Shown here piece by piece: positions 4,881 through 5,538 of a DNA stretch of 64,000 nt. The notes beneath the pieces are model-generated. The model worked only from the letters and a program-made list of their open reading frames with translations, was not told where the DNA came from and ran no database searches. The translations under genes were made by a program, and so were the position numbers. This DNA comes from Octopus sinensis. Lineage: Eukaryota. Position 1 is the stretch's first letter, and each line of letters opens with the position of its first letter. The DNA is taken from the NCBI RefSeq assembly GCF_006345805.1, contig NC_043004.1:29264001-29328000 (forward strand), read 5' to 3'.

Positions 4881-5538
4881 TAGCAATTAAGGAAAACTTC
4901 TTAAGGAATCTTAATAAGAAATTATCAGGTAGATAGCGTGAAAAACCTCATAAGAGAAAAATTTCGAAAATAATTCTTTCTTATTGAACATATTAATTTA
5001 TATATAGAGGGCATTATTATACAAAGATGCCACACGCTAAGAGGGACAAAAAGTCATTTCTACCAAAAAGTTTACTAATCCCACCGAATGCAATCTTTCA
5101 AAGCAAGACATTTAAAAAATATAGACTTGTATCACCTGTGATTTCGTACTTACGCACTCTTCAGCAAGCCTGGACGTATCATAAATAAACGGCCCTGTCT
5201 CGTCGAAGCCAAGCAGCTAACTGCCCAACGTCAACGGAGCACATGGGGAGTTTACATATATTACATCCGGTAAATGGCAGGCTTCTTCGAGTTGCATTTC
5301 GGAGAGGAAAAGTTTTTTCGGAATAAAATTATTTAGCAATTAAGGACAACTTCTTAATAAGGAATCTTAATAAGAAATTATCAGGTAGATAGCGTGAAAA
5401 ACCTCATAAGAGAAAAATTTCGAAAATAATTCTTTCTTATTGAACATATTAATTTATATATAGAGGGCATTATTATACAAAGATGCCACACGCTAAGAGG
5501 GACAAAAAGTCATTTCTACCAAAAAGTTTACTAATCCC
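4881..5538 (-). mobile_element. Retrozyme-like / PLE-derived element: ~200-bp direct repeats around a hammerhead-containing core
   Basis: 4881-5082 and 5334-5538 are near-identical direct repeats (period ~455 bp). Both ends abut (TA)n, and an HHR lies at 5124-5170 on the minus strand. Confidence 0.8.
5124..5170 (-). ncRNA. Type I hammerhead ribozyme, canonical core
   Basis: Minus strand: ggcttg-CTGAAGA-gtgc gtaa gtac-GAAA-tcac ag gtga-TA-caagtc. All three stems can pair; AUA cleavage triplet. Confidence 0.88.

What the first reader, a model, noticed from the sequence alone, without database searches (positions are those of the whole stretch)
4881..5538. Retrozyme-like 1.4-mer with an intact hammerhead
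Seen: an ~455-bp unit present about 1.4 times, with near-identical terminal repeats, no coding capacity, an intact minus-strand HHR and TA flanks. Known: metazoan non-LTR retrozymes are short HHR-containing tandem repeats that yield circular RNAs. Inference: this copy could come from reverse transcription running more than once around a circular ~455-nt RNA, or it is a tandem pLTR.
Basis: partly seen in the sequence, partly recalled or inferred. Interest (0 to 1): 0.8.

Follow-up and report, generated by a model that had tools for sequence, protein, structure and literature searches.

The report
Penelope-copied hammerhead retrozyme copy
This is one of hundreds of scattered copies of a short non-coding repeat carrying a hammerhead-ribozyme motif (a known kind, the animal retrozymes), and the copies' ends suggest a Penelope-type retrotransposon enzyme pasted them into TA repeats, likely by copying round a circular RNA.

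Summary
Observation confirmed: window 4881-5538 is 1.44 turns (658 nt) of a 456-nt non-coding unit between (TA)n runs, with one canonical type I hammerhead on the minus strand (5171-5123, AUA site 5130/5129). It is not a local duplication: a 20-mer has 949 exact genome matches (about 500 loci, extrapolated), as 0.2- to 7-mers, and a 74%-identical sister family exists. No ORF-bearing parent was found. Copies carry the Penelope-like (PLE) insertion signature: two fixed 3' ends about 110 nt apart, random 5' ends and inverted arms. In a position-ordered sample, 35 of 37 inverted insertions have one long and one short end. A circular template is favoured but not shown: 1 of 152 5' ends falls at the cleavage site, which copies cross 174 times without scars, and units of one insertion mostly share the same variants. 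One insertion fuses a Neptune-type PLE arm to a retrozyme arm. This copy has only one ribozyme, so it could not itself yield a monomer circle. Verdict: new member of a known kind (non-LTR retrozyme), with unusually clear genomic evidence on how it is mobilised.

The parts
4881..5538 (-). Whole insertion, 658 nt = 1.44 units; non-inverted, long ('T') 3' end at 4881, truncated 5' end at 5538
4881..5336 (-). One full 456-nt unit
5334..5538 (-). Partial second unit (98% identical to 4881-5082); stops 47 nt short of its cleavage site, so no second ribozyme
5123..5171 (-). Canonical type I hammerhead: stem I 5171-5165/5129-5123, CUGAAGA 5164-5158, stem II 5157-5146, GAA-A 5145-5142, stem III to 5131, predicted cleavage between 5130 and 5129
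4881..4989 (-). Optional ~110-nt 'tail' between the two fixed 3' ends of the family (T at 4881, S at ~4990)
4990..5010 (-). Short ('S') 3' end site, an AT-rich motif lying in a predicted hairpin; used by other copies, read through here
4927..5064 (-). Predicted structured domain round the S site (UAGCGUG 5039-5033 pairs with CACGCUA 4940-4934; both motifs kept in the sister family); candidate RT-binding domain (inference)
5172..5271 (-). Predicted long hairpin upstream of the ribozyme, mostly kept across subfamilies
4845..4880 (.). (TA)n target at the 3' end
5539..5638 (.). (TA)50 at the 5' end; no target-site duplication can be resolved inside the microsatellite

Best explanation
This is one scattered copy of a non-coding 456-480-nt hammerhead repeat (an animal non-LTR retrozyme) that was likely pasted into a TA microsatellite by the reverse transcriptase-endonuclease of a Penelope-like element, which likely copied 1.44 times round a circular RNA predicted to arise from ribozyme cleavage. 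Shown: family size, hammerhead conservation, two fixed 3' ends, random 5' ends, inversions, TA targets, multimers. Inferred: copies with two or more ribozymes are transcribed and self-cleave to unit length, and a host ligase closes the circle (the ligase step comes from PMC7229834). A PLE protein, likely a Neptune-type dimer, would nick both strands of (TA)n and start at site T from one strand and site S from the other. Two cDNAs joined give the inverted T+S insertions; one cDNA gives direct copies like this one. With one ribozyme, this copy would be a dead end for circle production.
For: PLE signature: 88 of 89 arms end at T (39) or S (49), and 80 of 89 run into TA-rich flank. Inverted insertions are 35 T+S, 1 S+S and 1 S+other. 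A second, biased set gave 17 T+S, 2 T+T and 1 S+other. In the sister family, 13 of 13 inverted T-anchored loci have S opposite. PLEs in this genome also have two ends in (TA)n (13 tailed and 10 short ends; family F), and two start sites plus extension of both strands are reported for a PLE in vitro (PMC11167929). Circle: 5' ends within 5 nt of the cleavage site are 1 of 89 and 0 of 63 (about 3.6 expected if uniform), against 98+76 crossings; indels in the windows at the site are 2/172 and 5/172 versus a median of 3.5%. 30 of 34 array units have their nearest neighbour in the same locus. 25 variants seen in no other sampled locus are shared by both inverted arms. The 9-segment two-arm L140 has 20 private and 0 subset-shared variants. 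L159 has a two-unit period with a G8C-broken core in every second unit, and the same intact-then-G8C order recurs on another contig. L188 fuses a PLE arm (tailed end) to a retrozyme arm (S end) through 3 nt of microhomology.
Against: No cleavage, expression or circle has been shown. In vitro the PLE PAc used unprocessed RNA, and its ribozyme was dispensable (PMC11167929). At columns covered three or more times, 23 variants are shared by only some units (72 shared by all, 137 private; L159 apart), and L159 clearly underwent later local duplication (units 4 and 6 differ by 0 substitutions). The window's closest sub-lineage (6 motif matches at 4 loci) has no locus with two tandem ribozymes in this assembly. 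No sequence homology to any sampled PLE end (best hit 47 nt, AT-rich, E 9e-4), so the partner is unnamed. The tail is about 110 nt, against 30-50 nt in PLEs. The chimera is 1 of 51 loci and could be a later insertion with target deletion.
Confidence: 0.65

Rival explanations
1. Same PLE-driven mobilisation, but the template is an uncleaved linear multimer transcript; arrays are regrown and homogenised by local duplication or gene conversion, and the ribozyme acts elsewhere in the cycle.
For: Unprocessed RNA was the main substrate for PAc (PMC11167929). There are 23 subset-shared variants plus the local duplication in L159. The window's closest relatives all fit within a 658-nt linear parent. 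The lack of 5' pile-up at the cleavage site fits this too.
Against: 5' truncation would shorten arrays every generation, yet 36 of 89 arms exceed one unit and 18 cross the site twice or more. Match density on the first 274 Mb (100 of 949 matches in 10% of the genome) leaves little room for a large assembled master array. Locus-unique variants are fixed across both inverted arms.
Confidence: 0.25
2. The repeat is the orphan tandem pLTR of an autonomous PLE that was not sampled; short copies are 5'-truncated insertions of it.
For: Xenopus retrozymes match PLE pLTRs (bioRxiv 10.64898/2026.07.22.740005). Only about 110 of more than 500 loci and roughly nine PLE families were examined.
Against: Head-to-tail arrays of up to 7 units have no ORF between them. 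5' ends are scattered over the whole unit rather than running into one ORF. None of 92 loci has a same-family ORF. Sampled PLEs carry minimal ribozymes, not this canonical one.
Confidence: 0.06
3. SINE-like mobilisation by an APE-type LINE, or simple local duplication inside microsatellites.
For: LINEs are abundant here, and an intact APE-RT LINE lies between two copies in L121. L1-type twin priming can also make inversions (recalled).
Against: No poly(A) or single 3' end. Both arms of inverted insertions end outward at fixed 3' sites in (TA)n, in strict T+S pairing, which matches PLEs. Hundreds of dispersed loci rule out local duplication.
Confidence: 0.04

Closest known systems
Metazoan non-LTR retrozymes (Cervera & de la Pena 2020, PMC7229834; coral, mussel, axolotl)
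   Same: Non-coding, low-GC short tandem repeat with a canonical type I hammerhead, monomer to multimer, strongly folded, co-existing with PLEs.
   Different: The unit (456-500 nt) is slightly above their 150-450 bp. It inserts in (TA)n with no visible TSD. Two fixed 3' ends, inversions and T+S pairing are not mentioned in the parts read ('inverted' occurs 0 times in the main text). Cleavage and circles are untested here.
Non-LTR retrozymes as non-autonomous PLE derivatives (Li, Clavereau, Pollet 2026, bioRxiv 10.64898/2026.07.22.740005)
   Same: Same conclusion, that retrozymes depend on PLEs.
   Different: Their evidence is co-occurrence and pLTR homology in vertebrates. Here no pLTR homology was found; the evidence is the insertion signature and one chimera.
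EN+ Penelope-like elements (Neptune/Poseidon/Naiad; Craig 2021 bioRxiv 10.1101/2021.04.23.441226; Frangieh 2024 PMC11167929)
   Same: Partial tandems, inverted 5'-truncated arm, tail on one end only, two RT start sites, AT-rich or (TA)n targets, hammerhead upstream of the start sites.
   Different: No ORF; tail about 110 nt rather than 30-40; canonical ribozyme with a 4-bp stem III rather than a minimal one.
Non-autonomous Chlamys elements such as MRC1 (Craig 2021)
   Same: [quoted passage not shown]
   Different: Those resemble their autonomous partner at the 3' end and occur in green algae; no such resemblance was found here.
Plant LTR retrozymes
   Same: Non-coding hammerhead retroelement with a circular RNA.
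   Different: Type III ribozyme, true LTRs, PBS/PPT and 4-bp TSD, Gypsy partner; none of these is seen here.

Membership tests
Non-LTR retrozyme | Type I hammerhead with intact core | tested here: met
   Window motif; 117 of 133 ribozyme positions in 71 loci keep the core pattern, 16 are broken or truncated; covariation. Not detected by Rfam.
Non-LTR retrozyme | Short tandem repeats, dimers to multimers | tested here: met
   Units of 453-488 nt; arms with up to 7 ribozymes.
Non-LTR retrozyme | Non-coding, low GC | tested here: met
   Longest frames 57-68 aa; window 4001-6000 is 35% GC; no tRNA gene.
Non-LTR retrozyme | Two consecutive ribozymes ('active' definition of Li 2026) | tested here: inconclusive
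   Not met by this copy (one ribozyme); met by the family (18 of 89 arms).
Non-LTR retrozyme | Target-site duplication, when present | tested here: inconclusive
   Cannot be resolved inside (TA)n.
Non-LTR retrozyme | Self-cleavage in vitro; loop 1-loop 2 tertiary contact | not testable with these tools
   Needs a transcription assay.
Non-LTR retrozyme | Expression as unit-length circular RNA | not testable with these tools
   Only contigs of runs not on record as RNA were available.
Non-LTR retrozyme | Co-existing autonomous PLEs | tested here: met
   RT + GIY-YIG elements, some with open frames of about 780 aa.
Autonomous PLE (membership) | RT and GIY-YIG ORF between pLTRs | tested here: not met
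   No such ORF in arrays or at 5' ends of 92 loci, apart from the chimera.
PLE-type insertion (works like) | Partial tandem, inverted 5' arm, tail on one end only, AT-rich target | tested here: met
PLE-derived element | Sequence homology to the pLTR of an autonomous family | tested here: inconclusive
   No convincing hit against about 90 PLE loci; the sampling is incomplete.
Plant LTR retrozyme | Type III hammerhead in true LTRs | tested here: not met
   Stem I is open (type I), and the repeats are partial tandems with variable 5' ends.

The most novel reading that the evidence does not exclude
The family records, at genome scale, how animal retrozyme circles are retrotransposed. A Neptune-type PLE dimer primes rolling-circle reverse transcription from two obligatorily different start sites, one per nicked strand. 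It can load a retrozyme RNA and its own RNA in one event (chimera L188), and it copies dimer circles when every second ribozyme is dead (L159/L165). This would name the partner class and the template form, both left open in the retrozyme papers read, without any shared sequence between parasite and helper.
Probability: 0.4. Interest if true: 0.7.

Novelty: new member of a known kind. Interest (0 to 1): 0.5.

Why it matters
The class is known, so this copy is ordinary in itself. Its value is mechanistic. PMC7229834 left open which autonomous element mobilises animal retrozymes and whether circles are the templates; the 2026 preprint argues a PLE origin from homology only and says the mechanism remains to be elucidated. 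This young, dispersed, low-multimer family shows PLE-type ends in nearly every insertion and a near-strict long/short end pairing. It also supplies a compact ~460-nt RNA with two mapped start sites, next to PLE families with open reading frames, so trans-mobilisation and rolling-circle copying become directly testable in vitro.

Tried and rejected
Rfam: no hammerhead hit. No RNA holder listed on record. Four runs guessed to be RNA were laid as contigs: family variants are present and contigs cross the unit-to-unit joint in 2 of 4 runs, but strand, level, RNA status and circularity cannot be told, so this is not used as evidence; one loose end led to the sister family. A second loose-end motif gave only 2 one-mismatch matches, which were not examined further. 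Partner search: the unit against 30 loci of the window's PLE family, 30 GIY-YIG loci and family F gave only short AT-rich hits. Two same-strand copies 5.7 kb apart (L121) looked like pLTRs round an ORF, but enclose an APE-type LINE between two separate insertions. GIY-YIG hits near L122 and L128 are separate insertions. Cleaved linear monomer as template: rejected (no 5' pile-up, no scars). tRNA-derived SINE: no tRNA. No hammerhead core on the opposite strand of the unit, so nothing points to RNA-to-RNA replication. A Pfam accession recalled for a PLE linker domain was not in the library. Earlier-findings look-ups returned nothing. Dropped or handled by hand: one 36-nt, 79% hit in L137 was dropped and L121 was split into two insertions before the counts; L226 (a duplicate of L225) was left out but counted; L121 and L228 were left out of the variant tally. 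The status labels were faulty and were redone.

Full report
Observation. Window 4881-5538 holds a 456-nt unit plus 202 nt of a second, 98% identical, between (TA)n runs. The longest reading frame is 63 aa. On the minus strand, 5171-5123 is a canonical type I hammerhead: 7-bp stem I, CUGAAGA, 4-bp stem II with a GUAA loop, GAA, 4-bp stem III with a CAGG loop, and an AUA triplet with predicted cleavage at 5130/5129. Rfam misses it, and the isolated 101 nt does not fold that way in the MFE. In the full unit folded as a circle, the forced hammerhead is only 0.9 kcal/mol above the MFE (-113.9 versus -114.8; plus strand -89.9). Across 16 distinct natural copies, 98.3% of cells pair and three pairs change on both sides (relatedness inflates the shuffle test, and the count of such pairs alone is not significant). 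Among 56 distinct ribozyme strings, including the sister family, stem I pairs 1-4 and stem II pair 1 show compensatory swaps.

Family. The window lies in G000, a 2.72-Gb animal genome; I guessed a cephalopod from recall and did not test it. The unit gave 115 matches from only 39 scored of 2550 candidates. An exact 20-mer has 949 matches, control 0. The first 100 listed cover contig 1 and 60 Mb of contig 2 (10% of the genome) and form 51 loci, so about 500 loci overall (extrapolation). I read all 51 as a position-ordered sample, and 41 further loci chosen by best match or by the window's subfamily as a biased second set that includes the window itself. At least four subfamilies were seen, with units of 453-488 nt; 117 of 133 ribozyme positions keep the core. 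A loose end led to a sister family of about 500 nt and 74% identity, with 541 pattern matches at up to 1 mismatch, a longer stem II and the same architecture.

Ends. In sense orientation, 88 of 89 arms end at one of two sites: T (window 4881; 39 arms) or S (about 4990; 49 arms). 80 of 89 run into TA-rich flank, and 5' ends are scattered. 37 of 52 insertions are inverted: 35 T+S, 1 S+S, 1 S+other (p 5e-10 against 50%). The second set gave 17 T+S, 2 T+T and 1 S+other of 20 (L122 and L228 are complex and counted as the script classed their main arms). In the sister family, 13 of 21 loci are inverted, and all 13 have S opposite the T end selected by the pattern. Craig 2021 (passages read) describes partial tandems, an inverted 5'-truncated copy and a 30-40-bp tail usually on one end only as PLE hallmarks. 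Frangieh 2024 (parts 1-2 of 4 read) shows that the tail is the stretch between two RT start sites and that the PLE protein nicks and extends both strands at AT-rich DNA. PLEs in this genome behave alike: the window's own PLE at about 11460-14364 (RT, Cys-rich linker, C-terminal GIY-YIG, so Neptune-type by Craig's description) has a tailed and a short end, its family shows 13 tailed and 10 short ends in (TA)n, and family F has both ends too.

Template. A cleaved linear monomer is excluded: only 1 of 152 5' ends lies within 5 nt of the cleavage site (about 3.6 expected if uniform), while copies cross it 174 times, and indels there are no more frequent than elsewhere (2/172 and 5/172; median 3.5%). 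That leaves a ligated circle or an uncleaved multimer. For the circle: 36 of 89 arms exceed one unit; 30 of 34 units are closest to a unit of the same locus; 25 variants seen in no other sampled locus are fixed in both inverted arms; and at columns covered three or more times, 72 variants are shared by all units, 137 are private and 23 are shared by a subset (L159 apart). Mutations arise privately in single units, so variants fixed across whole insertions imply a one-unit bottleneck, which a circle provides (inference). L159 alternates 486- and 459-nt units, with a G8C-broken core in every second ribozyme; the only other G8C copy of this type, on another contig, shows the same intact-then-broken order. 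That is what a dimer circle would give, but L159 was also duplicated locally and could be the linear parent. Against the circle: the 23 subset variants; unprocessed RNA being the main PAc substrate in vitro; and no two-ribozyme source among the window's closest relatives. Cervera 2014 (passages) already proposed circles as templates for more-than-unit PLE copies.

Partner. Ten PLE proteins searched against 92 loci gave 3 hits. Two are separate neighbours. In L089/L188, a 2.35-kb Neptune-type arm with a tailed end is joined head-to-head to 132 nt of the same PLE's 3' region, fused through ATA microhomology to 3 retrozyme units ending at S, with no PLE remainder beyond. The two PLE pieces differ at 1 of 132 nt, against 2 or more in each of the other family F copies that matched. 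This fits a template switch within one PLE-driven event; a later retrozyme insertion with a ~700-nt target deletion is not excluded. No pLTR homology was found, so the partner family is not named.

Comparison and novelty. It meets the testable criteria for a non-LTR retrozyme (Cervera 2020: parts 2-4 of 6 and passages read; its supplement could not be read, and may list related species). It is not an autonomous PLE, but it inserts like one. Li 2026 (parts 1-3 of 5 read; supplements not seen) already argues that retrozymes are non-autonomous PLE derivatives. Searches for retrozyme+hammerhead+non-LTR, octopus+hammerhead ribozyme, retrozyme+mollusc, Penelope+non-autonomous+hammerhead+rolling circle+pLTR, and a six-term mechanism query (listings only, apart from the papers named) showed no report of this family or of T+S pairing in retrozymes; the library lacks most subscription papers and TE databases. 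Verdict: new member of a known kind; interest 0.5, resting on the mechanistic signal of the family rather than on this single dead-end copy.

Noticed in passing
window 11460-14364: 5'-truncated Neptune-type PLE (RT 12261-12911, frameshift, GIY-YIG 12956-13606) with an inverted copy of its 3' region at the 5' side, a ~50-nt tail on one end only, in (TA)n; a young family with many near-identical copies, some with 782-aa open frames.
   Followed up: partly
window ~14238-14275; L095-L120; L188 ~5020-5070: Several PLE families carry minimal hammerhead-like motifs with UUGAnAA cores (U3-A8 instead of C3-G8) and a palindromic stem III (CCGG or CAUG). A search for hammerhead+C3U+G8A+Penelope found no paper with 3 of the 4 terms; activity untested.
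   Followed up: partly
L166-L185, L206, L188:3816-4432: Sister retrozyme family, about 500 nt and 74% identical, 541 pattern matches, long stem II, same S/T ends and T+S pairing.
   Followed up: partly
L188:4940-8875 (G000:C1): Candidate chimeric insertion: PLE arm with tailed end joined to three retrozyme units with a short end.
   Followed up: yes
L159:1631-5013 and L165:980-1677: Array with two-unit period in which every second ribozyme has G8C; the same order occurs on another contig.
   Followed up: yes
L121:2021-6619: Apparently intact two-ORF LINE (zinc-knuckle ORF1 of 393 aa; APE-RT-zf ORF2 of 1138 aa) lying between two retrozyme insertions.
   Followed up: partly
L134, L138, L158, L073, L151, L234: In several inverted insertions, both arms stop at nearly the same unit position (palindromic junction), and many junctions overlap by a few bases.
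   Followed up: no
L170/L171 (G000:C1, 1203 bp apart): A fragment of the sister retrozyme is embedded in another tandem repeat.
   Followed up: no
L190:1603-2723: Two identical PLE family F 3' ends in tandem, 836 bp apart; possibly a short non-autonomous tandem derivative.
   Followed up: no
window 19766 (-), 20714 (-), 20752 (+): Other CUGAnGA...GAAA motifs, including an inverted pair at about 20.7 kb; not examined.
   Followed up: no
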